Positions 3 to 52,025 of a stretch of 64,000 bases of DNA are shown here, one piece after another (position 1 is the first letter of the stretch; each line of letters opens with the position of its first letter). The notes below the pieces were generated by a model. It had not been told where the DNA came from. It made no database searches and was given only the letters and a program-made list of their open reading frames with translations. Position numbers and translations under genes: made by a program. Source of the DNA: a virus (taxonomy: Duplodnaviria > Heunggongvirae > Uroviricota > Caudoviricetes); the IMG/VR virus record IMGVR_UViG_3300032516_002776, positions 51,048 through 115,047 of that record; one strand, given 5' to 3'.

Positions 3-1496
3 AGAGAATCAGATATATCATCTTATAAATATAGAATTATAAACTTAACAAATGAAAACACAGATTTGAATGCTCTTCCTGGATTAAAACAGATATGGGA
101 TGTGATTGATTTAAAAAATATACAACGCCTGTCTACAACTCAAGATAGATTTGATATTGCGTGTAAAATTTCTGAAATCATATTAAACAATATTACTAAT
201 AATGCTATAGCATCGCCAACAAAACAAGATGAATCTGGTGGCGACGAATTATTAAAGCCATTCGATGATATCAGTGGAAACACCCCAATTCCAAACACTT
301 CTTCTCCGCTGCCTTCGACCACAGATGATACAAGCAAACCTTCTGATTTAAAACCATTATCTCCAGCAAAACGGGAGAAAGCAATAAAAGCATTAGAAAA
401 ACAAAAAGATTTTTTGAGTGGAAATGTAAAAAAGAAAAAACTTATAAAGAAAGATAAAAGGCTTTTAGATTTAATTGAAAAAAATAATATAACTATATCT
501 ATTGTTGGTAAAGATTACGATACCAGCGAAGCCTCAGATAAAGTTGGTGGAGTGGATTGCATTTTTGTAAAAAATCTTACAAAAGAATTAATTGCAGATG
601 ATACATTTCCATTATCAGACCATAATGTATTTAAGATAAAGACAGAAGAAGATACAGAAAATACTCTTGCGGTTAAGCGTGGCATCACGCTTGGAACATT
701 ATTGGGCAGCAAATTGCAGATACGAAACGAAGAGAATTACACTAAATTTTTACGGCGCACAACAGGAAAATTAGAAAAAAGAACTTTGTTTGAATTGGGG
801 TGGGATTCAGATTCAATCTTTTCTTCACACTATGTTGATAAATACAAGAATATTAACATTCATTTATCGGTAGATGCTAGTTCATCCATGCGCAATAAAA
901 AGTGGACAACTACAATGACTGCAGTTGTTGCTATTTGCAAAGCTGCATCAATGATAAATAATATTAATGTATCGGTGACTTTTAGAACAACGGCTATTGG
1001 TGGGCATTCTTCAAAAAGTCAATTACCATATGTTGTTTTAGCTTATGATTCTCAAAAAGATAAATTTACAAAAATAGTAAATTTATTTCCATGTTTAATA
1101 CCATCCGGATTTACACCAGAAGGTTTAGCCTTTGAAGCAATTATAGATAACATTCAAAATCCCGACCCTGACAGTTTGTATTATTTTATTAATTTTTCTG
1201 ATGGTGAACCATTTATGCATTATAGCGTTGGTGAGTTATATTATACGTACAGAGATGAAAAGGCCGCGGCTCATACTCACCGGCAAGTAACAAAGATTAA
1301 AAATAAAGGGTATGAAATACTTTCTTATTTTATAAAAGAGAAAAATTATGATTATGACCTATCTTCTGACAATGGTGATAAATTGGTAAGACAATTTAAA
1401 AAAATGTATGGAGAAAATGCAAGTTTTATAAATATTGAAAACGTTGTGGAAATCGCTAAATCTTTAAATATAATGTTTTTAAAAAAGGCTTTATAA
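3..1496 (+). CDS. vWA-domain protein, CobT-like; N-terminus probably outside window
   Basis: The frame is open from nt 3 with no upstream stop, so the gene is probably 5'-truncated. The track start at 66 is a TTG. It has a MIDAS motif D-x-S-x-S (VDASSSM) plus a downstream FSDGEP motif, both typical of von Willebrand A domains. The size and architecture resemble phage CobT-like partners of CobS/MoxR ATPases. Confidence 0.5.
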   Translation, partial: RESDISSYKYRIINLTNENTDLNALPGLKQIWDVIDLKNIQRLSTTQDRFDIACKISEIILNNITNNAIASPTKQDESGGDELLKPFDDISGNTPIPNTSSPLPSTTDDTSKPSDLKPLSPAKREKAIKALEKQKDFLSGNVKKKKLIKKDKRLLDLIEKNNITISIVGKDYDTSEASDKVGGVDCIFVKNLTKELIADDTFPLSDHNVFKIKTEEDTENTLAVKRGITLGTLLGSKLQIRNEENYTKFLRRTTGKLEKRTLFELGWDSDSIFSSHYVDKYKNINIHLSVDASSSMRNKKWTTTMTAVVAICKAASMINNINVSVTFRTTAIGGHSSKSQLPYVVLAYDSQKDKFTKIVNLFPCLIPSGFTPEGLAFEAIIDNIQNPDPDSLYYFINFSDGEPFMHYSVGELYYTYRDEKAAAHTHRQVTKIKNKGYEILSYFIKEKNYDYDLSSDNGDKLVRQFKKMYGENASFINIENVVEIAKSLNIMFLKKAL

Positions 1497-2259: not shown

Positions 2260-3435
2260 ATGAATATATCATCTAATCAATTCTTTGATGTGATTGATTT
2301 TGATTACGAAAAAGAGAAAAAAAAGTTTGTTGAACACATGTCCTACTTGAAAAAGATGGATGTGTTTGAACAAACTTTTTACAAAAAATGGGTAGAGGTA
2401 AGAGCTTATAAAAAATTCATTGGAAAGTTATCTACTGTTAAAGCAAAGATATGGATGCCTTCTGATATTAATGATGAACAGCAAACTATACAAGAAATAC
2501 AAAATTTAAATCCAATTATTAAATTGGTGGATGATTCCGAAGAAGAAGATTGGTTGATATTGAGACTCTTTGGACACACCATGGAATTTTCTCAAACCCC
2601 CGGCCGCTTTCTAAAGTTTCTAATTACTAGTGATGATAAATATTTAGGTGTGGTATCAATTTCCAGCGATGTTATTTGCATTCAAGATAGGGACAAATAT
2701 CTTGGTTGGACATCTGTAAATAAATTAAAAGGGAATAAAAAGATTAACAATAGTGCAATTGGAAGTTGTATTATGAGCACGCAACCATTTGGATATAATT
2801 TTCTCGGGGGCAAATTGATAGCTTGTTTAATAACCACCGATGTTATTCGAGACAAGTGGAAAGAATTATATGGCAATGTATTGGCCGGAATGACTACAAC
2901 TAGCTTATATGGAAGTTATAGTATGTATAATAGTTTAAAGTGGTGGCATAAATGCGGTTCAAGCGCTGGAAAGGTTGCTTTAAAGCCAGATGATAATTAT
3001 TATAAGATATGGCATGACTATATTAAGATACACCACAAAGTAAAATACGATAAGATGATGACACAAAAAGAAGGGGTGTCAGGGCCGGTTACCGCCGCGA
3101 AGCAACGGGCGTTAGGTGTTATTTTTTCAGAATTGGGGATGAAGCAGAAAGATTTTATTCATGGCTTTTTAAGGGGGACATATTATTCTTGTTTTTATGA
3201 GAATACCAAAGATTTTTTATGCGATAAAATCACAGAGGATAAATTGAAGTTAAAGCCTTTATTTGCTGGTGGTAAGAACGAAATATTAAATTGGTGGAAA
3301 CCAAAAGCAATTGAACGCTATATCAATTTAAAGAAGCAAAATCAGTTAAAGTCTGATATTCTATTTTATGATAAAATGATTGACCTTAACTATGAAGATG
3401 CAAAGACAATGTATTTAGGTGATGTTGGACGGTAA
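2260..3435 (+). CDS. hypothetical protein, family A (paralog of 8345..9088)
   Basis: 391 aa. It shares a conserved core with the 8345..9088 product: KYLGVVSISSDVI...DKYLGWTSVNKL..NNSAIGSC versus NLIGAVGISSAVI...DKYIGWDSKTKM..NNSRFCL. This may be a GNAT-like acyltransferase core, but the family is not recognised with certainty. Confidence 0.5.
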   Translation: MNISSNQFFDVIDFDYEKEKKKFVEHMSYLKKMDVFEQTFYKKWVEVRAYKKFIGKLSTVKAKIWMPSDINDEQQTIQEIQNLNPIIKLVDDSEEEDWLILRLFGHTMEFSQTPGRFLKFLITSDDKYLGVVSISSDVICIQDRDKYLGWTSVNKLKGNKKINNSAIGSCIMSTQPFGYNFLGGKLIACLITTDVIRDKWKELYGNVLAGMTTTSLYGSYSMYNSLKWWHKCGSSAGKVALKPDDNYYKIWHDYIKIHHKVKYDKMMTQKEGVSGPVTAAKQRALGVIFSELGMKQKDFIHGFLRGTYYSCFYENTKDFLCDKITEDKLKLKPLFAGGKNEILNWWKPKAIERYINLKKQNQLKSDILFYDKMIDLNYEDAKTMYLGDVGR

Positions 3436-3451
3436 TTAAGAAATTATTCTT

Positions 3452-3467
3452 ATATAAATAGTTGACA
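3452..3467 (+). promoter_or_regulatory. T4 late-promoter-like TATAAATA box overlapping a TTGACA
   Basis: TATAAATA at 3452-3459 and TTGACA at 3462-3467, about 35 nt upstream of the QueC-like ATG. Confidence 0.3.
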
Positions 3468-3498
3468 ATTTCATTCAAGTTTGTTATTTTTATATGAT

Positions 3499-4239
3499 AT
3501 GAATAACAAAGTTTTACTTGTGTGGTCTGGTGGTTGTGATTCAACATTATCCTTATTACGACTGCTCAAAGAAAAAAAGCGTGTTCGAACTATATCAGTT
3601 ATTCATCCACAAATTTATGCCGTCGCTGAAAATGCTGCAGCCCGTCTTGCTATTCATCGAAGATTGTTTGAAATGGGACATATTCTTGACCATGTTGGTG
3701 AAGTTGTAATTACTACGCCAACCAGACGACACATTGATATTGATGGAGCAAATAATGGTGGATTAATACAGCCAAACATTTGGTTGGGCATAGCCGCCTC
3801 TTATTTAGAGCAGGATGAAGATTTAGCATTCGGTTATATGCGCACCGACGATTTCTGGCATTATAAGACAGAATTTAATGTTGCGTTTAAACATTTTACA
3901 AAAATACTTGCAAAAGAATCCAGTGAATTAATATTTCCGCTTGAATGGAAAAATAAAGCAGAAATTATAAAAGAATTACTTGACAATGATTTGTTGAAGT
4001 ATTGTTGGACATGCGAAACTCCAACACTATATGGATTTAGTTGTGGGAATTGTACTCCATGTAAACATATGATAGATGCGTGTAAAGAAATAAATATAGA
4101 ATTTCCTTTTCATTTACAAGAAGTAAAAATTGATAAAATAATAGAAGATTCTAAGTTGGTGGAAATAATGACAATTTCCGAATCCGAAAAGGTGAAAGAG
4201 TCTGTTAATGTTCTACCATGTGTTAATGTGGCTGTGTAA
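3499..4239 (+). CDS. QueC-like PP-loop ATPase (7-cyano-7-deazaguanine synthase family)
   Basis: N-terminal SGGxDS PP-loop (LLVWSGGCDSTLS). The C-terminal block aligns with E. coli QueC: PLEWKNKAEI against PLMWIDKAET, CWTCETP against TLTCYNG, and the Zn motif CGNCTPC against CGHCAAC. The track start 3481 is TTG, so the first ATG at 3499 is used. A TATAAATA late-promoter-like box lies at 3452-3459 and a TTGACA at 3462. Confidence 0.6.
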   Translation: MNNKVLLVWSGGCDSTLSLLRLLKEKKRVRTISVIHPQIYAVAENAAARLAIHRRLFEMGHILDHVGEVVITTPTRRHIDIDGANNGGLIQPNIWLGIAASYLEQDEDLAFGYMRTDDFWHYKTEFNVAFKHFTKILAKESSELIFPLEWKNKAEIIKELLDNDLLKYCWTCETPTLYGFSCGNCTPCKHMIDACKEINIEFPFHLQEVKIDKIIEDSKLVEIMTISESEKVKESVNVLPCVNVAV

Positions 4240-4240
4240 T

Positions 4241-4636
4241 ATGCGGAATGTAAAATTTTTAATAGCAGAAGGTGGGGGTAAGGATAATTTATATACGAAG
4301 TCTGGAACAATTGTATCTAATGGTTATAATAGAATTGTTAAAGGGCAACGGGGAGCATATGTAGAATTTACGGATAGTCAAATACTTCTTAAATCATTTC
4401 ACATTCCAAAAAATCAATTGTATAGACTTACCGATTTAAGAATCTATTATATAGAAATGAGAAGCACCGACGCTTCCAATGCAAAACTTTATTATCAGAA
4501 AAAAACAGTCGCATATGCTGATTATAAGATTGGTATGTTTTATGTTTCCCCAAATGATTTATACTTAGAAGATAAACGATGTATTTTAGAAAAAATTACA
4601 AAAATCAACGAAAAAAACAGCGAATTCTTTGAATAG
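4241..4636 (+). CDS. hypothetical protein
   Basis: ORF in the track from 4208. The in-frame ATG at 4241, immediately after the QueC-like stop, is preferred as the start. Confidence 0.4.
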   Translation: MRNVKFLIAEGGGKDNLYTKSGTIVSNGYNRIVKGQRGAYVEFTDSQILLKSFHIPKNQLYRLTDLRIYYIEMRSTDASNAKLYYQKKTVAYADYKIGMFYVSPNDLYLEDKRCILEKITKINEKNSEFFE

Positions 4637-4755
4637 GGTCTTTCTATATAAACCTAATAAAGACGCATAGAATCGACTCCCAGAATTAATTAAAGGGGTT
4701 TATTTAAACCTTTAAGACCGCAGGAATATATTTAATATATAATAACCAATAAGAT

Positions 4756-4784
4756 ATTGACTAAAGGGTTGAAAACGCCTATAA
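4756..4784 (+). promoter_or_regulatory. sigma70-type promoter, perfect consensus TTGACT-N17-TATAAT
   Basis: TTGACT at 4756-4761, a 17-nt spacer, TATAAT at 4779-4784. It sits in a 200-bp intergenic gap upstream of the small gene 4835..5047, which has a strong RBS. Confidence 0.6.
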
Positions 4785-4834
4785 TACACAATGGATTCAG
4801 TAAAACGCTGGAAACAATAAAGGAAAAATAGTAT

Positions 4835-5047
4835 ATGGTTATTAAAACAAACAAAAACAATAGAACATACTTTGTGTATGATAAGAATGGTGGTATAGAG
4901 ACATTTATTTCTACGCCATTTGCAGGAGCAAAGAAGGCTACACGCTTGACAATTCGTGATGGCTACGAAAGGCTAGAATTGAATGGTCGTCAAGTCCGTT
5001 CACTGCGAGCCGTCTTGGATAAGGCCGAAGAGCTTTCTTGCAGCTAA
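4835..5047 (+). CDS. hypothetical small protein (70 aa)
   Basis: ATG preceded by AAAGGAAAAA. A consensus promoter lies upstream and a hairpin downstream, so this looks like a self-contained transcription unit. Confidence 0.5.
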   Translation: MVIKTNKNNRTYFVYDKNGGIETFISTPFAGAKKATRLTIRDGYERLELNGRQVRSLRAVLDKAEELSCS

Positions 5048-5062
5048 AAAACTTGGAAAAGG

Positions 5063-5100
5063 GAACGGAAGCAATAAAACTTCCGTTCTCTTCCAGATTA
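5063..5100 (+). terminator. putative hairpin terminator (weak U-tract)
   Basis: GAACGGAAG-caataaaa-CTTCCGTTC forms a perfect 9-bp stem just after the 4835..5047 stop. The trailing tract is tcttcc rather than a clean T-run. Confidence 0.35.
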
Positions 5101-5118
5101 TAAAACAAGAGCAAAATT

Positions 5119-5295
5119 TATGGGTAAAACATACAAAAGAAATTCAGACATTAATCATTTCGGCGGCCGAGCGATTAATACATTTAAAAAGTCGAAGAAA
5201 TTCAAGAAATTGAATAAGGTAAAGAAAAAAAATAAAAAGCCGGTAGTAGATATACCGCCGGTTATAACAGAACTAGATAATTATTTTGACTCATA
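5119..5295 (+). CDS. possible small basic protein (58 aa, Lys-rich); not in ORF track
   Basis: ATG at 5119. The product MGKTYKRNSDINHFGGRAINTFKKSKKFKKLNKVKKKNKKPVVDIPPV... is strongly basic. It falls below the 60-aa track cut-off and has only a weak RBS. Confidence 0.25.
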
Positions 5296-5597
5296 AAATT
5301 AAAATTCTATTAAGTCTTTTGTTTTCAATTATAATGACAATTATAGTTGTTATATTTCCAGCTATTCTTGGCTACATAGTTGGAATAATAGTATTTTTAT
5401 TTCTCTCTATGCGAATCGTGGTGAATGAAAACACCTTATACCAAAATAAAAACAATGAAGATACAGGTAAAAATATAAATACTTTAGATCATAACCATCT
5501 TGTGATACTATCTAGGCTAAACACAGTAGAAAAACAGATAAAGAAATTACAAGGTGATGAAAGCAAAGACAAACAACGCCTCAACCACAAAGGTTAA
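5286..5597 (+). CDS. hypothetical membrane protein
   Basis: The track start is TTG, and an in-frame ATG at 5334 is an alternative. The N-terminus has two hydrophobic helices (LLSLLFSIIMTIIVVIFPAILGYIVGIIVFLFL). Confidence 0.35.
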   Translation: MTHKIKILLSLLFSIIMTIIVVIFPAILGYIVGIIVFLFLSMRIVVNENTLYQNKNNEDTGKNINTLDHNHLVILSRLNTVEKQIKKLQGDESKDKQRLNHKG

Positions 5598-6036
5598 GGG
5601 ATTATTCGACCATATTAGCCATATCAGGCAGGGTAAATCACCTGATTACTTCGATAAACTTACCGACGATGAAAAGAAATCATTTAATCATTATATGATT
5701 TGTCGTGTATTAAGCATGGATAAATCTATTATTGAAGAAGTTTCTTTTATTAGCAAATATTTTAGTGTTATTGATAGTAAAAACTTTTATAAATTGTGTT
5801 GTGAAGTTGTTCCGTATAGTAAGGGATTCTTTCCTTATATAAAAAGAAAGGGAGAAAAGCTTAACAAAGAACTGCTTCAATTAATCGTCAAAAAATTCAA
5901 TGTCAGTCTGAATACTGCTACGGAATATTACTACTTATTATCCGACACCAAGCATGGCATGCATGAATTAAATGAAATTTGTAAGGGGTATGGGCATACC
6001 GAAAAAGAAATTAAGAAATTGATGGAATCCAAATGA
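5557..6036 (+). CDS. hypothetical protein
   Basis: The track start 5554 is GTG, so the adjacent ATG at 5557 is used. 159 aa. The 3' end overlaps the next start in an ATGA. Confidence 0.45.
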   Translation: MKAKTNNASTTKVKGLFDHISHIRQGKSPDYFDKLTDDEKKSFNHYMICRVLSMDKSIIEEVSFISKYFSVIDSKNFYKLCCEVVPYSKGFFPYIKRKGEKLNKELLQLIVKKFNVSLNTATEYYYLLSDTKHGMHELNEICKGYGHTEKEIKKLMESK

Positions 6037-6413
6037 ATAAAAATGAAGAAATAACAATTTCTTGTGTAAACAATCTTATTGAAGAATCTTTGAAGTTAAA
6101 GACTCAAGATTATAAGGTTGATTCTAAAATAATGTGGAATAGTTGGTCGCTATGGAAGAAATTGTTATATAGATCAATCCGTAGATTGTATTGTGCTGAA
6201 TTACAAATGTGGAATTTATATACACAAGAACTGGATAATGCTTTATATTGTGGCAATCACACAACAGAATATGTTGGCAACGCAAAAAATGCACACAGAA
6301 AATGGTGGTATCAAAACAATCCTAAATCCATATTGTTGTGCGATATACTTATTAAACCAATTAAGCCATTGGAATATATTAAAATGGATTTTGTAATCAA
6401 AGGTAAAAAATGA
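6033..6413 (+). CDS. hypothetical protein
   Basis: 126-aa ORF joined to both neighbours by ATGA start/stop overlaps. Confidence 0.45.
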   Translation: MNKNEEITISCVNNLIEESLKLKTQDYKVDSKIMWNSWSLWKKLLYRSIRRLYCAELQMWNLYTQELDNALYCGNHTTEYVGNAKNAHRKWWYQNNPKSILLCDILIKPIKPLEYIKMDFVIKGKK

Positions 6414-7039
6414 ATAAAACAATCATTGGCATATCAGGATTGGCTAGAGCTGGGAAGAATTTATTTGCGGATGTTGCGATTGATATTTTAAAGAAGAAAA
6501 ATATAACCGCAAAGACTTTTGCTCTTGCGTATTATCTTAAAGAGGATTGCGCAGATTTCATTAAAACATATTTGGATTTAAGTGTTTATTCAGAAAAGAA
6601 TGAAGAGAAAGAAATATTTAGACCTCTTTTAGTTTGGTATGGCGATGTTAAGAGAAAACAAACGAAAGGCAGATATTGGATTGAAGCGTTACAAAAGGAT
6701 TTAGAGGCTTCTAAAGCTTCTGTGAATATAATAACTGATATTCGTTATACGACATATGAGCGGGATGAATGTTATTGGTTGCAAAAAGAATTGGGTGGGA
6801 AGCTAGTGCATATTGCTAAATATAATATAGATTCGGGCGGTAACAAAATCTTTGATTTACCGCCGAATGAGCATGAAGAATTTAATGACCCTATATTACA
6901 GAAGTCTGGTGATATTAAAATAGAGTGGGAAGCTATCGGTTATAAATGTAATAATAGCTATATCTGTATGTTGAATGATTCAACCATAAAAGCTGCTGTA
7001 AATGATTCTTTGCTTAAATGTGGCATTGAAGGGTTATAA
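6410..7039 (+). CDS. gp1: deoxynucleoside monophosphate kinase (T4 gp1-like P-loop kinase)
   Basis: The N-terminal Walker A IIGISGLARAGKN matches T4 gp1 LIFLSGVKRSGKD. The later ITDIRYTTYERDE block matches gp1 VPDTRQDHEMD. The length of 209 aa is compatible. Confidence 0.6.
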   Translation: MNKTIIGISGLARAGKNLFADVAIDILKKKNITAKTFALAYYLKEDCADFIKTYLDLSVYSEKNEEKEIFRPLLVWYGDVKRKQTKGRYWIEALQKDLEASKASVNIITDIRYTTYERDECYWLQKELGGKLVHIAKYNIDSGGNKIFDLPPNEHEEFNDPILQKSGDIKIEWEAIGYKCNNSYICMLNDSTIKAAVNDSLLKCGIEGL

Positions 7040-7069
7040 AATTATTATTTTAAATAAAGGAATTATAAT

Positions 7070-7345
7070 ATGAAAACAACCTATTTAGATTACTTAAATA
7101 AGCCAAATGGCAATCCAATTACCGAAATTGGCCAGCTATGCCGTAAGTGTAATACACCTGTCATAGAACAGGTGCATAAGCCAAATTGGAAGCCTAAGCC
7201 AAACCAATCATACTACTTTACAAAGTGGTTATATTGTAGTGGCTGCAAAACTGTTTATTATTTAGATAAATTTAGAGTATTTACTGATAGTAAACATGGT
7301 GATGCAGCGATTGAACGGCTTGAAATGATTGGCCATAAAGGTTAA
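7070..7345 (+). CDS. hypothetical Zn-ribbon protein
   Basis: 91 aa with two Cys pairs, CRKC...CSGC. Confidence 0.45.
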   Translation: MKTTYLDYLNKPNGNPITEIGQLCRKCNTPVIEQVHKPNWKPKPNQSYYFTKWLYCSGCKTVYYLDKFRVFTDSKHGDAAIERLEMIGHKG

Positions 7346-7355
7346 AAGGAATAAT

Positions 7356-7652
7356 ATGAAAATACGCACAGGATTTGTAAGCAATAGTAGTAGCTGTAGT
7401 TTTGTCATTAACAAGGATTGTATTACGGGTATGCAGCGTGATAAAATTTATGATTATTACAATTTTGGTGTAGTCATTGGTCATATTATTCCAGATGATA
7501 TTAGGCCTGAGTGGGAATCTTCATATCGTAATTGGAGTATTCATGAAACTCCTGGCGCTATTAAAGGATTCTCTGTCATTGATAATTTTGATATGCCATC
7601 CTATTTAGATAAGATTGGTATTAATCGAAAAAATATTAAATTTGATGAATAA
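7356..7652 (+). CDS. hypothetical protein
   Basis: The track start 7329 is TTG. The ATG at 7356, with an AAAAGGA RBS directly after the upstream stop, is preferred. Confidence 0.4.
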   Translation: MKIRTGFVSNSSSCSFVINKDCITGMQRDKIYDYYNFGVVIGHIIPDDIRPEWESSYRNWSIHETPGAIKGFSVIDNFDMPSYLDKIGINRKNIKFDE

Positions 7653-8352
7653 TCTTTATATACAAAAGGCATCGAATAGTGAAGCTAAAGATTTAATTGT
7701 TAAAAACCACTACACGCATAAGTGGACTATCGCTGAACTTTGCCTTGGATTATATAAAAAGGAGTTTGTTGAAGGATTCTTTGATACCGATAAGTTATTA
7801 GGAGTAATTATTTTTGGTCCCACGGCCGGCGCAAATGTCGCAAAAAGCATTTCGCCCCTGTTAAATGCTAGCAATACATGGGAATTAAAACGACTTTGGG
7901 TTGATGATTGTCTTGGCAAAAATACGGAGTCATGGTTTATAAGTCAAGCTATTGATTACATTAAAAATTTTCATTCAAACATAAAGTGCATCATAAGTTA
8001 TGCTGACCCAGACGCTGGACACATAGGTACAATATATGCCGCTGCTAATTTCATTTATCAGAATATAGAACGGCCAAAAGGCACAAGTGGTTATGTAGTT
8101 AGTTTTGATGGTGGCAAAAAGTGGGTACATGGTCGAACATTATTTAATAAGTATGGGTCATTTGAATTTAATAAACTTGTGGCAGTATTACCGCGGCCAT
8201 TCTGGATAAAAGAATTATCAGTAAAAGAAAGATATGTTTATCCTCTTGGAAATAAGATAGAACGCAAGGAATTATTAAAGAGCATGAATTATAAATCCTT
8301 GCGGTATCCAAAAAAGAAATTAGATAAGGAAAAAATAACTGAATATGTCTAA
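7645..8352 (+). CDS. Mom-like (GNAT-fold) DNA-modification acyltransferase candidate, family B (paralog of 39434..40237)
   Basis: The track start 7615 is TTG, so the ATG at 7645 is used. It shares motifs with the 39434..40237 product: HY(S/T)...P, KLLGVIIFGP against KLVGVLTLGW, W.LKRL, and YAAANFIYQN against YQAANFLYGG. By recollection this resembles the phage Mu Mom family, but that is not verified. Confidence 0.4.
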   Translation: MNNLYIQKASNSEAKDLIVKNHYTHKWTIAELCLGLYKKEFVEGFFDTDKLLGVIIFGPTAGANVAKSISPLLNASNTWELKRLWVDDCLGKNTESWFISQAIDYIKNFHSNIKCIISYADPDAGHIGTIYAAANFIYQNIERPKGTSGYVVSFDGGKKWVHGRTLFNKYGSFEFNKLVAVLPRPFWIKELSVKERYVYPLGNKIERKELLKSMNYKSLRYPKKKLDKEKITEYV

Positions 8353-9088
8353 TTTCTTTGATTTTACTAATAATGATAATTCTCCCGTGGTATTAGAATC
8401 ATGTAATTCTTCTATAAAAAATAAACTTTTCAAAGATACCATAGACACTTATCATAGTTATGTAAAATTCAAATCCATACCATCCCGCCGATTAAGCTAT
8501 CTTGTCTATGAATCCAAGAGTGGAAATTTGATTGGAGCAGTAGGAATTAGCAGTGCGGTTATAGCTGTAGCCTGTATAGACAAATATATCGGCTGGGATT
8601 CTAAAACAAAAATGCGAAACTTGAATAAAGTCGCCAATAACTCTCGATTCTGTCTTATTCAGTCAAATATAACCATAAAGAATACAGGCAGTATGGCATT
8701 AAAACAATTAAGAATCATTGGAGCTAAGGATTGGAAAGCTCGTTATGGTGATGAATTGATTTTATTGGAAACATTTGTTCAGCCCGAAAGAGACTTAGCA
8801 TATAACACACAAATGACTCGAAATGGTTCGGTATACCTTTCCGACAATTGGATTGAGATTGGTATGACAAGCGGCAGTTCCATACAGAAATCTCCACTTA
8901 AATTGTGGGCAAAAGAAGATGGAGAACGTGGGCGGTTAGCGAGAGAAGATAAAGCGGAATGTTTGAAGCGTTATGCTCAATATATGGATGGGCATAATAA
9001 TAGTGGTTACAAAGTCACAAAGAGTAAGAAGAAGATTGTTTTTATTAAACCATTGGTATACAATTGGAAGATTAAGTTGACAACTTAA
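8345..9088 (+). CDS. hypothetical protein, family A (paralog of 2260..3435)
   Basis: 247 aa with conserved DKYIGW...NNSRFCL and a GxG-like RIIGAKDW segment. It overlaps the upstream stop. Confidence 0.5.
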   Translation: MSNFFDFTNNDNSPVVLESCNSSIKNKLFKDTIDTYHSYVKFKSIPSRRLSYLVYESKSGNLIGAVGISSAVIAVACIDKYIGWDSKTKMRNLNKVANNSRFCLIQSNITIKNTGSMALKQLRIIGAKDWKARYGDELILLETFVQPERDLAYNTQMTRNGSVYLSDNWIEIGMTSGSSIQKSPLKLWAKEDGERGRLAREDKAECLKRYAQYMDGHNNSGYKVTKSKKKIVFIKPLVYNWKIKLTT

Positions 9089-39038: not shown

Positions 39039-39431
39039 ATGCCTATAATAGATTCAGTTGCAGTGATGATTACACGAGATGATGATGTATCTTTATCATG
39101 CAGATTAGATACAAAGACATTTCCTTATGTGTGGGCTTTCGCTGGTGGTTCTATTGAAGCAAACGAAACTCATAGAGATGCAGCTAAACGAGAAGTTTTA
39201 GAAGAAACTGGATTAAATATTGCCATTGAGCGTTTTAATTTTATTTCTTATGCTTTTGAAGGCGGTCAACATTGTGCAGTATATAATGTCCAATTGTATA
39301 ATAGAGAAGAGCCGCAACATATAGAAACAGAGAAACACACACAATGGGTGTGGGTAAACAAGAATAATGTCCACTCTTTGATTATGATGCCTGGCGTTGA
39401 AAGAATAATCAATGGTATTTACATCGAATAA
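39039..39431 (+). CDS. Nudix hydrolase
   Basis: Nudix box GGSIEANETHRDAAKREVLEETGL (Gx5Ex7REUxEExGU). Confidence 0.65.
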   Translation: MPIIDSVAVMITRDDDVSLSCRLDTKTFPYVWAFAGGSIEANETHRDAAKREVLEETGLNIAIERFNFISYAFEGGQHCAVYNVQLYNREEPQHIETEKHTQWVWVNKNNVHSLIMMPGVERIINGIYIE

Positions 39432-39433
39432 AT

Positions 39434-40237
39434 ATGATTGTCAAATCCACCGACAATTTATTGGGACTTGAGTTAATCTTTAATACTCATTATAGCAAAA
39501 TAATGCCAAGATTGACTAAGTATTATCTTGGTGCTTATGAAAACAATAAATTAGTGGGGGTTTTAACTTTGGGGTGGGGTACTCGACCAATTCATACGAT
39601 TAAAAAGCTATTTCCATCACTGCGGACAAAAGATTATCTGGAAATTGGCAAGATGTGTATGTTAGAGGAAATGCCTAAAAATTCTGAATCCCAATTTCTT
39701 TCTTCTGCGATAGAATGGCTAAAGAAAAATGACCCCGCCCCAAAAATACTTTTCACTTGGGCCGATGGAATATTAGGAAAGCCTGGTTATGTATATCAAG
39801 CAGCAAATTTTCTATATGGCGGATTTATATGGACAGACCTGTATATTACTGACAAGGGCGAAAAAGTACACCCTCGAACAAGTCAAGGTTTAACGGATAA
39901 GGGCGATAAAATTTGTGGCCACAGACCTACAAAGTCCTATTTAATTAAAAACGGATGGAGTCATTACAAAGGAAAGCAATTTCGGTATATTTATTTTTTG
40001 TGCAATAAGATAGAAAAGAAAAAATTATTAAAAGAATCAGTAGAAATATGGGGCAATAATTATCCAAAAAATAAAGATATAGAGTGGCAAAAGCAAGATT
40101 TGACAACGGGCGACTGGGTATCAGTGCCGAAGATGTTTTATGACCCAGCAATAACTACAATGGCTAATAAGAAAGCAATGTCTAATAAAAATAAAATGGT
40201 AGGATTGAAAACCTCCAGACAATTCTTCGACATATGA
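39434..40237 (+). CDS. Mom-like (GNAT-fold) DNA-modification acyltransferase candidate, family B paralog 2
   Basis: It shares HYS...P, YYLGAYENNKLVGVLTLGWGTRP, W.L...E.S.F.S and YVYQAANFLYGG with the 7645..8352 product. Confidence 0.4.
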   Translation: MIVKSTDNLLGLELIFNTHYSKIMPRLTKYYLGAYENNKLVGVLTLGWGTRPIHTIKKLFPSLRTKDYLEIGKMCMLEEMPKNSESQFLSSAIEWLKKNDPAPKILFTWADGILGKPGYVYQAANFLYGGFIWTDLYITDKGEKVHPRTSQGLTDKGDKICGHRPTKSYLIKNGWSHYKGKQFRYIYFLCNKIEKKKLLKESVEIWGNNYPKNKDIEWQKQDLTTGDWVSVPKMFYDPAITTMANKKAMSNKNKMVGLKTSRQFFDI

Positions 40238-40239
40238 CC

Positions 40240-40268
40240 TTGACAAAGTTTTATTGATTGTGTATAAT
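40240..40268 (+). promoter_or_regulatory. sigma70-type promoter, perfect TTGACA-N17-TATAAT
   Basis: TTGACA at 40240-40245, TATAAT at 40263-40268. The ATG of the YopX gene is only 7 nt downstream, implying a leaderless or very short leader. Confidence 0.55.
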
Positions 40269-40274
40269 CATTAT

Positions 40275-40685
40275 ATGAAGAGAGATATTAAATTTAGAGT
40301 GTGGGATAAGGTAACTGAAAAATTTGTAAAAAGTGCCGTAGGCGGTTTTGGTTGGCCGGATTACTGCGAAATCCGATTAACTCTTGAAGGTAACTTGAAA
40401 ATTGAAGCGGAATATGGTGAAGCGACATTAGACCCAGACCGATATATCATTCAACAATACATAGGCATCGAAGATGATACCGGCAAAGAAATTTATGAAG
40501 GCGATATTGTTGAATTGGAAACGGGTAATTCTGCCCAAAGTTGGATAGAAAAAATATTACCTTCTTATAATGATTTAATGACAATTTTTAAAATATATTC
40601 ACAGCGTAATCCTCATCAACATCAAATGATTCAAAGTATTAAAGTCGTCGGTAATATATTTGAAAAGAGGGGGACATTGAAATGA
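40275..40685 (+). CDS. YopX-family protein
   Basis: MKRDIKFRVWDK... is the YopX N-terminal signature. The track start 40254 is TTG, so the ATG at 40275 is used, consistent with paralog 40974. Confidence 0.55.
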   Translation: MKRDIKFRVWDKVTEKFVKSAVGGFGWPDYCEIRLTLEGNLKIEAEYGEATLDPDRYIIQQYIGIEDDTGKEIYEGDIVELETGNSAQSWIEKILPSYNDLMTIFKIYSQRNPHQHQMIQSIKVVGNIFEKRGTLK

Positions 40686-40973: not shown

Positions 40974-41480
40974 ATGAATAGAGAATTTAAATTTAGAGTG
41001 TGGTATCCAAAAGAGAAAAAATTTTATTATACATCTTTTGAGCAAGCATACGGAATATTAGGGAAAGATGCCTGGAAAGAAGAATATATCATTCAACAAT
41101 ATACAGGTCTTATAGATAAAAATGCTAAAGATATATATGAAGGTGACCTTATAACAATTACAGGTGATGTTGAAGGTCGTGAGCCATGTTCACCGACACA
41201 CAAAGAAACAAGCTGTCCTCTAGAAGTATTTTGGGATGAAAATTGGAATGGCTGGCGTGCTCGCTTCATTCCTAGTTATAACACAGACATTTATGAAAGG
41301 CATGATTTACCACGAAGTTATGAATCACATCATTTAGAAGTGGTTGGTAATATGTTTGAAAATTTGGAGACACTAAAATGGGCAAAATATATAAAGACAA
41401 AAGAGGCTCTTCCTGCAAAATGTGCAAACCGCATAAAAACAAGTGGGCAGACAAGAAAAAAGTCAAAGAAAGAGATTTAA
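40974..41480 (+). CDS. YopX-family protein (paralog)
   Basis: MNREFKFRVWYPKEKKFYY... plus shared YEGD(I/L) and VVGN(I/M)FE motifs with the 40275..40685 product. Confidence 0.55.
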   Translation: MNREFKFRVWYPKEKKFYYTSFEQAYGILGKDAWKEEYIIQQYTGLIDKNAKDIYEGDLITITGDVEGREPCSPTHKETSCPLEVFWDENWNGWRARFIPSYNTDIYERHDLPRSYESHHLEVVGNMFENLETLKWAKYIKTKEALPAKCANRIKTSGQTRKKSKKEI

Positions 41481-50266: not shown

Positions 50267-50500
50267 ATGAAACCTATAGACTTTAAAGATAGCAATCATA
50301 AATTTGCAGAGAAGCAAAAGGAATATATAACTTTACCCGGTTATATGGATGAAAATGGGATATTTATTTCTTGTTGGAAATTAACATTTTTTGAAAGAAT
50401 AATAGTATTACTAAAAGGTAAAATATTTTTGTCCACGATGACATTTTTTAAACCACTACAACCACAAAGAATGTCTGTAAAATTTGAGGAGGAAATATGA
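50267..50500 (+). CDS. hypothetical protein
   Basis: 77 aa. Confidence 0.35.
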   Translation: MKPIDFKDSNHKFAEKQKEYITLPGYMDENGIFISCWKLTFFERIIVLLKGKIFLSTMTFFKPLQPQRMSVKFEEEI

Positions 50501-51486
50501 ATTTTAACCAAGGATTAAATTATAATAATATTGTTTTGACGCCAAATTTTTCGACATTACCGAGCAGAAGTCTTGCGGGTACATCTTTAATTTTTGGTAA
50601 TAAAGTATTTGAATTACCTATTTGTCCGGCCAATATGGTTTGTTGTATCAGCACAGAACTTGCCTATTGGTTGAGCGAGCATAATTATTTTTATGTAATG
50701 CACCGTTTTGATGGTGAAACTAATAAGAAAGATTTGCGTTGGTTCATTGAAAAGGCTAATACGGAAATGTGGCATTGTATTAGTATTAGTATTGGAGTTC
50801 AAGAAGAAGATTATGAATTATTGTGGTGGATTAATGTACGAAACCTTCGAGTGGATTTTATTACGATAGATATTTCTCATGGCCACTGTTTAAAAATGAA
50901 GGAAATGTTAGAGTTTCTTAATAAAGAAATTAAATTTAAAAATAAAACATTTGTTATAGCTGGCAATATTGGCACGCGAGAAGCGGTTAGTGATTTAGAA
51001 ATTTGGGGCGCAGACGCAACTAAAGTAGGATTAGCCTTTGGAAAAGCTTGTATAACTAAGAACAAAACGGGATTTGCTTCTCCAATGTTTTCTACTATTT
51101 TATTATGCTCTCAAAATTCTAAAAAACCCATTATCGCTGATGGTTCAATTAGTGAAAATGGGGATATAACAAAGGCATTAGTGGCTGGGGCAACAATGGT
51201 TATGGCGGGGAATATATTTGCGGCTTGTGTTGATAGTCCCGCCGAAAGTATTTATTCTGAAAATGGCAAACACATTGTTTCTAAAAAATATTTTGGTTCG
51301 GCATCTAAACGCAGTGGAAAAACTAAAAATATTGAAGGAACAGAAGTTATAATTGAATGTAATGATATGACTTACAATGAAAAATTAGAAGAAATTAAGC
51401 AAGATTTACAATCAAGCTTATCGTTTACTGGCCATAGTAATAAACTTGAAGACTTAAAAAGAGTGGAATGGAAAATTTTACAATGA
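50497..51486 (+). CDS. guaC: GMP reductase (IMPDH/GuaC family)
   Basis: It aligns along its length with E. coli GuaC: LNYNNIVLTPNFSTLPSRS against FKDVLIRPKRSTLKSRS, IDISHGH against IDVANGY, and the catalytic-Cys block GLAFGKACITKNKTGFASP against GIGPGSVCTTRVKTGVGYP. Confidence 0.7.
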   Translation: MNFNQGLNYNNIVLTPNFSTLPSRSLAGTSLIFGNKVFELPICPANMVCCISTELAYWLSEHNYFYVMHRFDGETNKKDLRWFIEKANTEMWHCISISIGVQEEDYELLWWINVRNLRVDFITIDISHGHCLKMKEMLEFLNKEIKFKNKTFVIAGNIGTREAVSDLEIWGADATKVGLAFGKACITKNKTGFASPMFSTILLCSQNSKKPIIADGSISENGDITKALVAGATMVMAGNIFAACVDSPAESIYSENGKHIVSKKYFGSASKRSGKTKNIEGTEVIIECNDMTYNEKLEEIKQDLQSSLSFTGHSNKLEDLKRVEWKILQ

Positions 51487-52025
51487 AAAACATTTTAAAC
51501 AGAAATAGAGTATACCTTGTCGGTCAAATGCAATACATCAAAGATGGTTCTGTTTGGCGTGATTATGTCGAAGCAGAATTAAAAAAGATGGGTGTAATTG
51601 TATTTAATCCATATAATCATCCATTTATCAATTCCGTGACGGAGGATAACAATGCAACGGCAACATTAAAGAGTCTTATCGCTGAAGGGAAATATGATGA
51701 ATGTGCTGAAATTATGCGAAAGATTCGTGGCGAAGATTTACGTGTCGTTGACATTGCTGATTTTATATTTTGCTATATAGACCCGCTTAAACCGACCTGT
51801 GGGGCGTGGGAAGAAGTTTTCACGGCGAATCGCGCTAAAAAGCCTATATTTTTTGTAGCCGAAGGCGGAAAGGATGTTTGTCCTCTCTGGCTTTATGGTA
51901 CAATTCCCCATAAATATATGTATAATTCCATAGATGATGCTTTGCAAATGCTTTGGGATATTAACAGCGGTGCAAAGCCTATTGATTCTTCCCGTTGGCG
52001 CATTCTCCGACCAGAATTCCTATAA
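51483..52025 (+). CDS. nucleoside 2-deoxyribosyltransferase/DNPH1-like protein
   Basis: VYLVGQM and the DIADFIFCYID...CGAWEEVFTANRAKKPIF block resemble the NDT/Rcl family (GxAWExG). The track start is 51468, and the ATG at 51483 (ATGA overlap) is preferred. Confidence 0.4.
   Translation: MKNILNRNRVYLVGQMQYIKDGSVWRDYVEAELKKMGVIVFNPYNHPFINSVTEDNNATATLKSLIAEGKYDECAEIMRKIRGEDLRVVDIADFIFCYIDPLKPTCGAWEEVFTANRAKKPIFFVAEGGKDVCPLWLYGTIPHKYMYNSIDDALQMLWDINSGAKPIDSSRWRILRPEFL

What the first reader, a model, noticed from the sequence alone, without database searches (positions are those of the whole stretch)
2260..9088. Candidate DNA base-hypermodification module: QueC-like PP-loop ATPase without its usual partners, two novel paralog pairs and Mom-like proteins
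All these genes run on the + strand.

- 3499..4239 has the QueC PP-loop and the C-terminal CxxC-x-C zinc site. No QueD, QueE, FolE or TGT/DpdA-type protein is recognisable in 64 kb.
- It sits between a 391-aa protein (2260..3435) and, 4 kb downstream, that protein's paralog (8345..9088).
- It is also close to a protein (7645..8352) whose motifs recur in 39434..40237.
- By memory, family B resembles phage Mu Mom (a GNAT-fold adenine-N6 acyl/carbamoylmethyl transferase).
- Family A shares a similar LGV..S / (D)KY(L)G / CL spacing and could be a distant relative.
- A gp1-type dNMP kinase (6410..7039) and Zn-ribbon ORFs lie between them.

An amidotransferase-type PP-loop enzyme plus multiple acyltransferase-like paralogs inside a T4-like replication module is the kind of arrangement seen for post-replicative base modifications (7-deazaguanines, Mom, thymidine hypermodification). 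This exact combination does not match a system I know. It is either a new variant of deazaguanine or acyl-type DNA modification, or the QueC fold has been recruited for a different amidation.
Basis: partly seen in the sequence, partly recalled or inferred. Interest (0 to 1): 0.8.

Follow-up and report, generated by a model that had tools for sequence, protein, structure and literature searches.

The report
Phage Mom/DruA enzymes plus orphan QueC-like
An uncultured T4-like aquatic phage carries two Mom-type DNA-adenine-modifying enzymes, two Mom-related DruA proteins and a lone QueC-like ATP enzyme in its replication gene block; all are real and belong to known families, but they are not one co-inherited pathway, and the lead worth following is the repeated pairing of Mom with DruA genes.

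Summary
All genes lie at the stated coordinates, both paralog pairs are real, and no QueD, QueE, FolE or TGT/DpdA is found in the 64 kb.

The families are not novel. Family A is DruA/DUF4338 (PF14236) and family B is Mom (PF25680).

- **QueC-like protein.** It keeps the PP-loop and the zinc cysteines but lacks the residues essential for preQ0 synthesis. It belongs to the "singleton phage QueC-like" group that Hutinet et al. flagged in 2019.
- **No single module.** None of 80 DruA-long loci and none of 80 Mom loci carry a QueC-like gene. None of 27 QueC-like loci carry DruA. Mu Mom needs only Gly-tRNA, not an amidotransferase.
- **What is linked.** Mom and DruA genes recur together: 26 of 80 Mom loci have a DruA gene nearby, in several distinct arrangements, some with overlapping reading frames.

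Best reading: Mom-type adenine modification of phage DNA, plus Mom-related DruA transferases of unknown substrate, plus an unrelated orphan PP-loop enzyme.

The parts
2260..3435 (+). DruA-long: a 391-aa DruA/DUF4338-family protein. It has a GNAT core (about residues 105-320, with a helical insertion at about 245-291 between two long strands) plus N- and C-terminal helical regions. It is a core gene of this phage group.
3499..4239 (+). Orphan QueC-family PP-loop ATP pyrophosphatase. The ATP loop and zinc site are intact and the substrate pocket is remodelled. It is an accessory insertion directly downstream of DruA-long.
   Evidence: Pfam QueC 1.3e-12. PHROG 1550 2.5e-30. TIGR00364 scores 32 bits against a cut-off of 150. 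Motif table. AF2 pLDDT 81. Foldseek hits: Cap9 9nto 1.5e-8, QueC 3bl5 2.3e-7.
5554..6036 (+). Small clamp-loader subunit (gp62-like). This is conserved replication-module context, not a modification gene.
   Evidence: PHROG 225 5.5e-15. Pfam Phage_clamp_A 0.005. Cyanophages have the DUF4338 gene directly upstream of gp62.
6410..7039 (+). dNMP-kinase-like P-loop kinase. It is conserved in relatives and marks the upstream edge of a variable gene slot.
   Evidence: PHROG 139 7.4e-14. Pfam P-mevalo_kinase 5.1e-10. DNMK 20 bits, below its cut-off. Synteny.
7070..7345 (+). Small zinc-ribbon ORF (91 aa) of unknown role.
   Evidence: CxxC...CxxC is visible in the translation. Only weak Pfam and PHROG hits.
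7645..8352 (+). Mom-family GNAT, copy B1 (235 aa). It is predicted to be active. Its stop overlaps the start of DruA-short by 8 nt.
   Evidence: Pfam Mom 3e-39 over the whole profile. PDB 8bv8 1.4e-8. Key-residue signature HYRSDDHYW matches the pattern of 149 aquatic-phage Moms, which is constant except at the R151 position.
8345..9088 (+). DruA-short: a 247-aa accessory DruA/DUF4338 paralog consisting of a minimal GNAT core.
   Evidence: Pfam DruA 6.9e-22. BLASTP to DruA-long 6e-9. The same overlapping Mom-then-DruA-short pair occurs in L133/L134. Under a non-significant hhalign alignment, 17 of 19 clade members carry the equivalents of Mom R111, S124 and Y159.
39434..40237 (+). Mom-family GNAT, copy B2 (267 aa). 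It is divergent and lies directly after a NUDIX gene (39039-39431) and near the DNA polymerase.
   Evidence: Pfam Mom 1.5e-46. PDB 8bv8 1.8e-16 over chain residues 42-220. Signature HYKSDIKYK has K at R111, K at position 154 and K at W181, an outlier among 149 sequences.

Best explanation
The stretch is part of the early/replication gene block of an uncultured T4-like (Kyanoviridae-related) aquatic phage. Contigs reach about 205 kb for this phage and about 270-296 kb for relatives. The block holds three kinds of enzyme genes that are inherited independently.

1. **Two Mom-family GNATs.** By analogy with Mu Mom (shown for Mu, inferred here), they take an aminoacyl group, glycine in Mu, from a charged host tRNA. 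They transfer it to N6 of adenine in duplex phage DNA. The adduct rearranges to N6-carbamoylmethyl-adenine and blocks host restriction. No partner enzyme is needed.
2. **Two DruA/DUF4338 proteins.** One is a core 391-aa gene at its ancestral position beside the clamp-loader gene. The other is a 247-aa accessory paralog translationally coupled to Mom. Both are GNAT-fold relatives of Mom. I infer that they are Mom-like transferases, or Mom partners (Mu Mom works as a dimer), acting on nucleic acid with a different donor or target.
3. **A stand-alone QueC-family PP-loop enzyme.** It should still bind ATP and zinc and adenylate a carboxyl or carbonyl group. It has lost the residues that recognise 7-carboxy-7-deazaguanine. 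It is a rare insertion next to DruA-long, is not a preQ0 synthase, and is functionally unconnected to the GNATs. Its substrate is unknown.
For: **Family assignments.**

**Mom.** The mechanism and essential residues come from PMC13219725. B1 keeps H58, Y59, R111, S124, D149, Y159 and W181. R151 is variable in all 148 aquatic homologs analysed.

**DruA-long is a core gene.**
- More than 2400 homologs.
- Fixed synteny CobS/CobT - DruA - ... - gp62 - dNMP kinase.
- In the cyanophages S-SM2 and S-PRM1 it lies between gp44 and gp62.

**Independence of the QueC-like gene.**
- 0 of 80 DruA loci and 0 of 80 Mom loci carry one.
- Of 27 QueC-like viral loci, 0 have DruA and 1 has Mom, and there is no recurrent neighbour.
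- Its relatives in phages SP-15, Noxifer and phiMAM1 are singletons.

**QueC signature.** Y35->H, R99->Q (113 of 120), YPDC->DDxWHY, Y189->E (110 of 120), judged against the residues shown essential in PMC13329287.

**Mom-DruA linkage.**
- 26 of 80 Mom loci have a DruA gene within 8 kb.
- Immediate Mom-Mom-DruA arrays occur in L190, L205 and L211.
- Overlapping Mom/DruA-short pairs occur in the window, L133/L134, L197 and L210.
Against: - No chemistry was measured. Nothing shows that this phage's DNA is modified.
- DruA-long has G at the positions aligned with Mom R111 and S124, so it cannot use Mom's exact catalytic set.
- B2 has R111K, a change that drastically reduces activity in Mu Mom.
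- Part of the Mom-DruA proximity may be inherited synteny within one phage supergroup rather than functional coupling.
- DruA-long and QueC-like stay adjacent in four related lineages, so a lineage-specific partnership is not excluded.
- Only 64 kb of this genome was visible.
Confidence: 0.6

Rival explanations
1. One reading: one integrated hypermodification pathway. DruA and Mom GNATs install an acyl or carboxymethyl group on a DNA base, and the QueC-like PP-loop enzyme amidates it or ligates an amine to it.
For: All genes are co-directional with no + strand terminator-like site between 1991 and 9088. DruA-long and QueC-like are adjacent in the window and in L002, L007 and L008, where the QueC-like proteins are 48-68% identical. 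PP-loop adenylation followed by amidation of a carboxylate is chemically plausible (established QueC chemistry).
Against: 0 of 80 DruA-long loci and 0 of 80 Mom loci carry a QueC-like gene. 0 of 27 QueC-like loci carry DruA. DruA-short plus Mom arrays exist without any QueC-like gene. Mu Mom needs no amidotransferase (PMC13219725). The four lineages that share the adjacency are close relatives, so they count as roughly one event.
Confidence: 0.1
2. An ordinary 7-deazaguanine system: the QueC-like protein is a working preQ0 (or ADG) synthase, and queD, queE, folE and dpdA lie outside the 64 kb window or are supplied by the host.
For: Pfam QueC is above its gathering score. The PP-loop, K165 equivalent and zinc cysteines are kept. 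QueC 3bl5 and 2pg3 are among the top structural hits. The rest of the genome was not visible.
Against: TIGR00364 scores 32 bits against a cut-off of 150. Three of the four residues shown essential for preQ0 synthesis are replaced across the family (Y35->H, R99->Q, Y189->E). The fourth, Y131, lies in a YPDC motif replaced by a shorter DDxWHY segment. No partner gene is present in the window. No recurrent neighbour appears in 27 viral loci. Hutinet et al. 2019 found that singleton phage QueC-like proteins do not connect to QueC in similarity networks.
Confidence: 0.05
3. The QueC-like protein works like Cap9 or QatC. It would be an ATP-dependent ligase that conjugates a nucleobase-type carboxylate to a protein, or a phage counter-defence that interferes with such host systems (type IV CBASS, Qat).
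For: Its best structural match is Cap9 in the Cap9-CdnD complex (9nto_B, E 1.5e-8); QatC is also hit. It has the minimal size of about 200 aa and a 'CE' at the first zinc cysteine, as in the Cap9 motif CE(x)6CxxCxxC. There is a weak PADLOC 'QueC' hit (1e-5).
Against: The Cap9 substrate motifs RN and YxDC are absent, as are the QatC-specific motifs. No CD-NTase, Cap10/TGT or QatABD-like neighbour is found in the window or in the 27 loci. No candidate target protein is conserved next to it.
Confidence: 0.12
4. The DruA-family proteins do not act on DNA. They would be protein or small-molecule acetyltransferases, or decoys or antagonists of host Druantia type I, and their nearness to Mom would be inherited gene order.
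For: Homology to defence DruA runs over almost the full length (PADLOC 1.8e-16). DruA-long has a Q-x-x-G-x-N stretch at the position of the acyl-CoA-binding motif A of classical GNATs (seen in the sequence; inference). hhalign against Mom is not significant. In the pelagiphages and cyanophages examined, no Mom is annotated next to the DUF4338 gene.
Against: Mom is the top structural neighbour by two independent methods. At least four different Mom/DruA juxtapositions exist, some with overlapping reading frames. In L133 the same slot also holds Eco57I-type, ResIII and PD-(D/E)XK genes. The gene sits in the replication module across Kyanoviridae.
Confidence: 0.15

Closest known systems
Phage Mu Mom (PF25680; PDB 8bv8): tRNA-Gly-dependent N6-adenine modification giving 6-NcmdA
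   Same: B1 and B2 are full-length Mom-family members. They carry H58, Y59, S124, D149 and Y159, and B1 also carries R111 and W181. They are phage-encoded and stand-alone. Mom is also the nearest solved structure to DruA-long.
   Different: R151, essential in Mu, is D in B1 and I in B2, and it varies in all aquatic homologs. B2 has R111K. There are two divergent copies per genome, and tandem Mom-Mom pairs are common in relatives (43 of 80 loci). No Com-type regulator was looked for. The donor, target motif and product are untested.
DruA (DUF4338, PF14236) of the Druantia type I defence system
   Same: Both window proteins pass the Pfam and PADLOC DruA models. DruA-long matches almost the whole 407-position model. 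The Aravind laboratory already called DUF4338 a GNAT domain (PMC10853773). DruA-like proteins in Synechococcus phages were noted by structure search (Phold preprint, 10.1101/2025.08.05.668817).
   Different: There is no DruB-E and no YprA-type helicase here. The gene is phage-encoded, a core gene of the replication module, duplicated, and repeatedly placed beside Mom genes. The function of DruA is unknown in either setting.
Singleton phage QueC-like proteins (PHROG 1550; Bacillus phage SP-15 gp114, Salmonella phage SFP10 and others; Hutinet et al. 2019)
   Same: Stand-alone proteins of about 200-250 aa with no FolE, QueD, QueE or DpdA. A profile built from the window protein and its 11 closest homologs hits the SP-15 protein at 5.6e-65 (locus L040). 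They lie among nucleotide and replication genes. Hutinet et al. already suspected a functionally unrelated subgroup of N-type ATP pyrophosphatases.
   Different: Nothing material; the window protein is a member. New here are the family signature (WSGGCDST, GLxQPxxW, GYIRGDDxWHY, CExP...CGxCxPC), its size (427 clusters at 50% identity with E<=1e-30) and the absence of any conserved neighbour.
Canonical QueC, Cap9 and QatC (PF06508 clusters 1, 9 and 2 of Libby et al. 2026)
   Same: The fold, the SGGxDS PP-loop, the conserved Lys (K165 equivalent) and the four-cysteine zinc site.
   Different: It lacks YxQxHxxE, VPxRN, YPDC and Y189 of QueC and Cap9, lacks the QatC-specific motifs and extensions, and has none of their genomic partners.

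Membership tests
Canonical QueC (preQ0 synthase) | SGGxDS PP-loop | tested here: met
   SGGCDS at residues 10-15. S10, G12, D14 and S15 are invariant in 120 family representatives.
Canonical QueC (preQ0 synthase) | C(x)8CxxCxxC zinc site | tested here: met
   C172, C182, C185 and C188 give C(x)9CxxCxxC. C172, C185 and C188 are invariant and C182 is present in 119 of 120.
Canonical QueC (preQ0 synthase) | YxQxHxxE motif with essential Y35 | tested here: not met
   The window has HPQIYAVAE. The Y35 position is H in 90 of 120; Q is kept in 66 of 120; H39 is not kept (definition).
Canonical QueC (preQ0 synthase) | VPxRN motif with essential R99 | tested here: not met
   The aligned segment is GLxQPxxW. 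Q replaces R in 113 of 120 and P replaces N.
Canonical QueC (preQ0 synthase) | YPDC motif (Y131) and Y189 after the first zinc cysteine | tested here: not met
   The segment is DDxWHY, two residues shorter. E173 replaces Y189 in 110 of 120.
Canonical QueC (preQ0 synthase) | Equivalog-level HMM score (TIGR00364 / NF008317) | tested here: not met
   32.4 bits against a cut-off of 150.3, and 23.5 against 378.
Canonical QueC (preQ0 synthase) | Linkage to queD/queE/folE and a TGT/DpdA | tested here: not met
   None in the 64 kb. No recurrent neighbour in 27 viral loci. The rest of the genome was not visible.
Canonical QueC (preQ0 synthase) | Converts CDG to preQ0 (complements a queC deletion) | not testable with these tools
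   Needs a complementation or enzyme assay.
Cap9 / QatC protein-deazaguanylating ligases | Operon with CD-NTase and Cap10 (Cap9) or with QatA/B/D (QatC) | tested here: not met
   No such Pfam families in the window and no conserved neighbour in 27 loci.
Cap9 / QatC protein-deazaguanylating ligases | Cap9 motifs RN and H(x)4YxDCxxxF, or the QatC-specific motifs and extensions | tested here: not met
   QP replaces RN, and W-H-Y-K replaces Y-x-D-C. The protein has no QatC-type extensions (246 aa). Only the 'CE' at the first cysteine matches Cap9.
Singleton phage QueC-like subgroup (Hutinet 2019; PHROG 1550) | Sequence membership with SP-15-type singleton proteins | tested here: met
   PHROG 1550 2.5e-30. 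tblastn to SP-15 gp114 3e-15. The A1 profile (12 sequences, window protein included) hits the SP-15 locus L040 at 5.6e-65.
Mom family (PF25680) | Profile score above the gathering threshold over the full domain, including the insertion region | tested here: met
   B1 scores 135 bits over profile positions 1-202 of 202. B2 scores 159 bits over positions 3-192. B2 aligns with 8bv8 chain residues 42-220.
Mom family (PF25680) | Catalytic residues R111 and S124 (essential) plus D149, H58, Y59 and Y159 | tested here: met
   B1 has all of them. B2 has all except R111, which is K.
Mom family (PF25680) | R151 (essential in Mu Mom) | tested here: not met
   D in B1 and I in B2. The position is not R in any of 148 aquatic-phage homologs, which instead conserve H at Mu position 154.
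Mom family (PF25680) | Gly-tRNA-dependent formation of 6-NcmdA in dsDNA | not testable with these tools
   Needs LC-MS or an in vitro assay as in PMC13219725.
DruA / DUF4338 (PF14236) | Profile score above the gathering threshold | tested here: met
   69.7 and 78.4 bits against a cut-off of 27. PADLOC DruA 1.8e-16 and 1.7e-7.
Druantia type I system | druA in an operon with druB-druE (YprA-type helicase DruE) | tested here: not met
   No DUF1998/YprA helicase and no DruB-D in the window. The context is a phage replication module.
GNAT superfamily (for DruA-long) | GNAT fold | tested here: met
Mom-like mechanism (for the DruA proteins) | Equivalents of Mom R111, S124 and Y159 | tested here: inconclusive
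   Under a collinear but non-significant hhalign alignment, 17 of 19 DruA-short proteins have R, S/T and Y at these positions. DruA-long has G, G and Y.

The most novel reading that the evidence does not exclude
DruA/DUF4338 proteins are a sister family of Mom that also modify nucleic-acid bases, using acyl-CoA or aminoacyl-tRNA, alone or as heteromers with Mom. If so, abundant T4-like cyanophages, pelagiphages and their large freshwater relatives would carry an unrecognised DNA base modification made by a core replication-module gene. DruA of Druantia type I would be a DNA-marking or mark-sensing enzyme, which would give that unexplained defence system a testable self/non-self mechanism.
Probability: 0.25. 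Interest if true: 0.8.

Novelty: new variant of a known kind. Interest (0 to 1): 0.5.

Why it matters
- **Mom.** Its chemistry was solved only in 2026. The window shows that aquatic T4-like phages often carry several divergent Moms, which may differ in sequence motif or in amino-acid donor.
- **DruA.** It has no known function, either in Druantia type I or in the thousands of phage genomes that encode it. A structural tie to Mom, plus repeated gene-level pairing with Mom, gives a concrete hypothesis that is cheap to test.
- **Orphan QueC-like family.** It adds a fourth, uncharacterised branch to the QueC scaffold, beside QueC, Cap9 and QatC. It has at least 427 clusters at 50% identity.
- **Negative result.** A QueC Pfam hit in a phage without DpdA should not be annotated as deazaguanine DNA modification.

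Tried and rejected
- **blastn against phages.** The region found nothing in 50,697 phage records, so no close cultured relative exists.
- **DruA sequence searches against the PDB.** phmmer and hmmsearch found nothing real; the armadillo-repeat hits are low-complexity artefacts.
- **hhalign of DruA against Mom.** Not significant with small or larger alignments (probability 1-10%). I use the alignment only as an inference about residue positions.
- **The search for related loci with the 120-sequence QueC-like alignment.** It failed because no conserved stretch was found. The 12-sequence alignment worked.
- **Neighbour clustering around 27 QueC-like loci.** It looked for a partner gene and found none. 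The commonest neighbours occur in at most 4 loci: a possible terminase, an SHMT-like protein and an AAA protein.
- **Proteins next to QueC-like genes in distant loci.** The unknown proteins in L003, L010 and L011 have no Pfam hit and are not DruA or Mom.
- **A phage-encoded tRNA-Gly to feed Mom.** The window has no tRNA gene.
- **Promoter-like sites.** They are not enriched (42 found, 45.9 expected). The TTGACA-17-TATTTT site before the QueC-like gene is therefore not evidence of a separate transcription unit.
- **QueC-like working with the GMP reductase at 50.5 kb in purine remodelling.** Considered and dropped: there is no linkage, and the GMP-synthase motifs are absent.

Full report
**1. 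Checking the observation.** The minus-strand ORFs inside 2260-9088 are short and nested in the + strand genes.

Profile searches assign the genes as follows.
- 2260-3435 (391 aa) and 8345-9088 (247 aa) are DruA/DUF4338 (PF14236; E 3e-19 and 7e-22).
- 3499-4239 is QueC (PF06508; E 1.3e-12), and matches PHROG 1550 'QueC-like' better (2.5e-30).
- 7645-8352 and 39434-40237 are Mom (PF25680; 3e-39 and 1.5e-46).
- 6410-7039 is dNMP-kinase-like.
- 5554-6036 is the small clamp-loader subunit.

Direct BLASTP confirms both paralog pairs (6e-9 and 8e-14). I scanned every ORF of 90 aa or more in the window against Pfam. No PTPS/QueD, radical-SAM QueE, GTP cyclohydrolase or TGT/DpdA appeared. The one correction is that the two 'novel' families are curated Pfam families.

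**2. The genome.** The window is about 31% G+C. It encodes a family B DNA polymerase, clamp-loader subunits, a PD-(D/E)XK nuclease, an SNF2 helicase and YopX proteins. It has no close DNA relative among 50,697 phage records. The DruA-long protein occurs on metagenomic contigs up to 205 kb. Its 60%-identical homologs occur on contigs of 270-296 kb. Relatives of that protein in cultured phages are all Kyanoviridae: Pelagibacter phages Mosig and HTVC008M and many Synechococcus T4-like phages. I read this as an uncultured T4-like aquatic phage related to Kyanoviridae.

**3. The QueC-like protein.**
- **Fold.** An AlphaFold2 model (pLDDT 81) has the QueC-family fold. The best PDB matches are Cap9 (9nto_B, 1.5e-8), QueC (3bl5, 2pg3), YcfA and QatC.
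- **Family size.** A profile of the protein and its 11 closest homologs finds 427 clusters at 50% identity with E<=1e-30, and 1525 with E<=1e-10, among 1.8 billion representatives. Of the 120 representatives I scanned (the best-scoring ones, chosen for alignment A2), 118 give only a weak QueC Pfam hit (best E 4e-17).
- **Signature.** Libby et al. 2026 define canonical QueC by SGGxDS, YxQxHxxE, VPxRN, YPDC, K165 and C(x)8CxxCxxC. They showed that Y35, R99, Y131 and Y189 are essential. Aligning 120 family members with the two crystallised QueCs gives this picture:
  - the PP-loop, the Lys and the four cysteines are kept;
  - Y35 is H (90 of 120);
  - R99 is Q (113 of 120);
  - YPDC is replaced by a shorter DDxWHY;
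  - Y189 is E (110 of 120).
- **Equivalog score.** The NCBIfam QueC equivalog scores 32 bits against a cut-off of 150.
- **Other QueC branches.** The Cap9 motifs RN and YxDC and the QatC-specific motifs are also absent, although 'CE' at the first cysteine resembles Cap9.
- **Prior notice.** Hutinet et al. [quoted passage not shown] The window protein belongs to that group (tblastn to SP-15 gp114 3e-15; profile hit to the SP-15 locus 5.6e-65).
- **Conclusion.** It is an ATP- and zinc-binding adenylating enzyme with a different, unknown substrate. It is not a preQ0 synthase.

**4. Testing for a single module.** I used phyletic patterns.
- **DruA-long is abundant and constrained.** It has more than 2400 homologs, and the best 120 are all at least 59% identical.
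- **It has a fixed place.** The order is CobS-like AAA, a 680-690-aa partner, two small ORFs, DruA-long, a variable slot, gp62, dNMP kinase, a second variable slot, then a minus-strand glycan cluster. In S-SM2 and S-PRM1 the DUF4338 gene lies between gp44 and gp62. In the pelagiphages it lies beside the peptidase and CobS genes.
- **80 viral contigs with a DruA-long homolog (±10 kb):** none has a QueC-like gene, 21 have a Mom gene about 5 kb upstream, and 12 have a DruA-short paralog downstream.
- **27 viral contigs with a QueC-like family member (±6 kb):** none has DruA, one has Mom, and no neighbour family recurs in more than 4 loci. The relatives in SP-15, Noxifer and phiMAM1 are also singletons, set among replication or nucleotide-metabolism genes.
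- **Conclusion.** The QueC-like gene is a rare accessory insertion into the slot after DruA-long. It is shared only by four closely related lineages. This argues against a PP-loop plus acyltransferase pathway.

**5. Mom.**
- **Known mechanism.** Silva et al. 2026 showed that Mu Mom alone transfers glycine from Gly-tRNA-Gly to N6 of adenine in dsDNA. The adduct then rearranges on the base to 6-NcmdA. R111, S124 and R151 are essential. H58, Y59, D149, Y159, W48 and W181 are important, and so is an HTH-like insertion. No amidotransferase is involved.
- **Match to the structure.** Both window proteins match the Mom crystal structure sequence 8bv8 (1.4e-8 and 1.8e-16).
- **Key residues.** I aligned 149 Mom sequences and read nine positions: H58, Y59, R111, S124, D149, R151, R154, Y159 and W181.
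  - Mu Mom reads HYRSDRRYW.
  - B1 reads HYRSDDHYW, the common aquatic-phage pattern. R151 is variable there and H is fixed at position 154.
  - B2 reads HYKSDIKYK, an outlier that includes R111K.
- **Conclusion.** B1 is very likely an active Mom-type enzyme. B2 is less certain.
- **Tandem copies.** Mom-Mom pairs in which both copies keep the catalytic set occur in 43 of 80 Mom loci.

**6. DruA and its relation to Mom.**
- **Sequence methods do not link them.** phmmer and hmmsearch against the PDB found nothing. hhalign gives a probability of 1-10%.
- **Literature agrees in part.** The Aravind laboratory called DUF4338 a GNAT domain. The Phold preprint noted DruA-like proteins in Synechococcus phages.
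- **Residue mapping (inference).** The collinear hhalign alignment places the following opposite Mom residues. In DruA-short proteins (17 of 19): H opposite H58, R opposite R111, N opposite N121, S/T opposite S124, Y opposite Y159, and N-W opposite N163-F164. DruA-long has G at the R111 and S124 positions and keeps the Tyr.

**7. Gene-level link between Mom and DruA.**
- In the window, Mom B1 and DruA-short overlap by 8 nt.
- The same overlapping pair occurs in L133/L134. There the slot after the dNMP kinase holds ResIII, an Eco57I-type gene, Mom, Mom, DruA-short, a PD-(D/E)XK gene and another DruA.
- Among 80 Mom loci, 26 carry a DruA gene within 8 kb. This includes immediate Mom-Mom-DruA-long arrays (L190, L205, L211) and overlapping Mom/DruA-short pairs in either order (L197, L210).
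- These are at least four different arrangements, which is hard to explain by one inherited gene order alone. Shared ancestry of these phages still inflates the counts.
- Mu Mom is active only as a dimer, so heteromers are a reasonable but untested idea.

**8. Verdict.**
- The components are real.
- The unifying model is not supported. The region is a mosaic of a core DruA gene, accessory Mom and DruA-short genes that do associate with each other, and an unrelated orphan QueC-like enzyme.
- The best-supported function is Mom-type adenine modification of phage DNA (inferred by homology). The DruA proteins are probably related transferases. The substrate of the QueC-like enzyme remains unknown.
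- Nothing here is categorically new, but the Mom-DruA link and the uncharacterised QueC branch are useful, testable leads.

Noticed in passing
window 9694-32207, minus strand: A gene cluster of about 22 kb for nonulosonic-acid-type sugar synthesis and glycosyl transfer. It includes NeuB (2e-67), a CMP-sugar cytidylyltransferase, a PseB-like dehydratase (Polysacc_synt_2, 4e-73), two aminotransferases, a formyltransferase, a PIG-L deacetylase, an ATP-grasp enzyme, several methyltransferases and at least five glycosyltransferases. Relatives carry different sugar genes in the same position.
   Followed up: partly
window 50497-51486 (+): A GMP-reductase-like gene (NCBIfam NF003966, 319 bits against a cut-off of 344; Pfam IMPDH 4.9e-39). 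The next gene, 51468-52025, looks like a nucleoside deoxyribosyltransferase by eye but had no HMM hit.
   Followed up: partly
window 66-1496 (+) and upstream (L020 2518-5550): A MoxR/CobS-like AAA gene and a partner of about 684 aa lie just upstream of DruA-long; the window holds only the C-terminal 476 aa of the partner. The same CobS + large 'peptidase' + DUF4338 neighbourhood occurs in the pelagiphages Mosig and HTVC008M and in the cyanophage S-SM2; in S-PRM1 only CobS is annotated.
   Followed up: partly
L133 4760-13212 (relative; 81-kb contig): In a relative, the slot after the dNMP kinase holds a ResIII helicase, an Eco57I-type gene, two Mom genes, a DruA-short, a PD-(D/E)XK nuclease and another DruA. 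This is an island of DNA-modification and restriction-type genes.
   Followed up: partly
viral loci L143-L214: Tandem Mom-Mom gene pairs (a copy of about 252 aa followed by one of about 267 aa, often overlapping) occur in 43 of 80 aquatic viral contigs. Both copies keep the Mom catalytic residues. Two specificities per phage seem likely.
   Followed up: partly
window 39039-39431 (+): A NUDIX hydrolase gene ends 2 nt before the start of Mom copy B2. Two YopX-domain genes follow, at 40254-40685 and 40974-41480.
   Followed up: no
window 54777-57023 and 57415-59019 (+): A 748-aa protein with an ArdC N-terminal (anti-restriction) domain lies upstream of an SNF2-type helicase, with a 111-aa ORF between them.
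   Followed up: no
L003 10001-10591; L014 (SP-15) 6956-7693: In two unrelated large phages the QueC-like gene lies downstream of the replicative DNA polymerase gene: overlapping its end in L003 (Pol III alpha), and separated from it by two small ORFs in SP-15 (Pol I-type). This may be a hint about function, or it may be chance.
   Followed up: no
window 3462-3490 (+): A TTGACA-17-(TG)TATTTT promoter-like site lies 9 nt before the QueC-like start codon. Such sites are not enriched in the region, so it is not evidence on its own.
   Followed up: no
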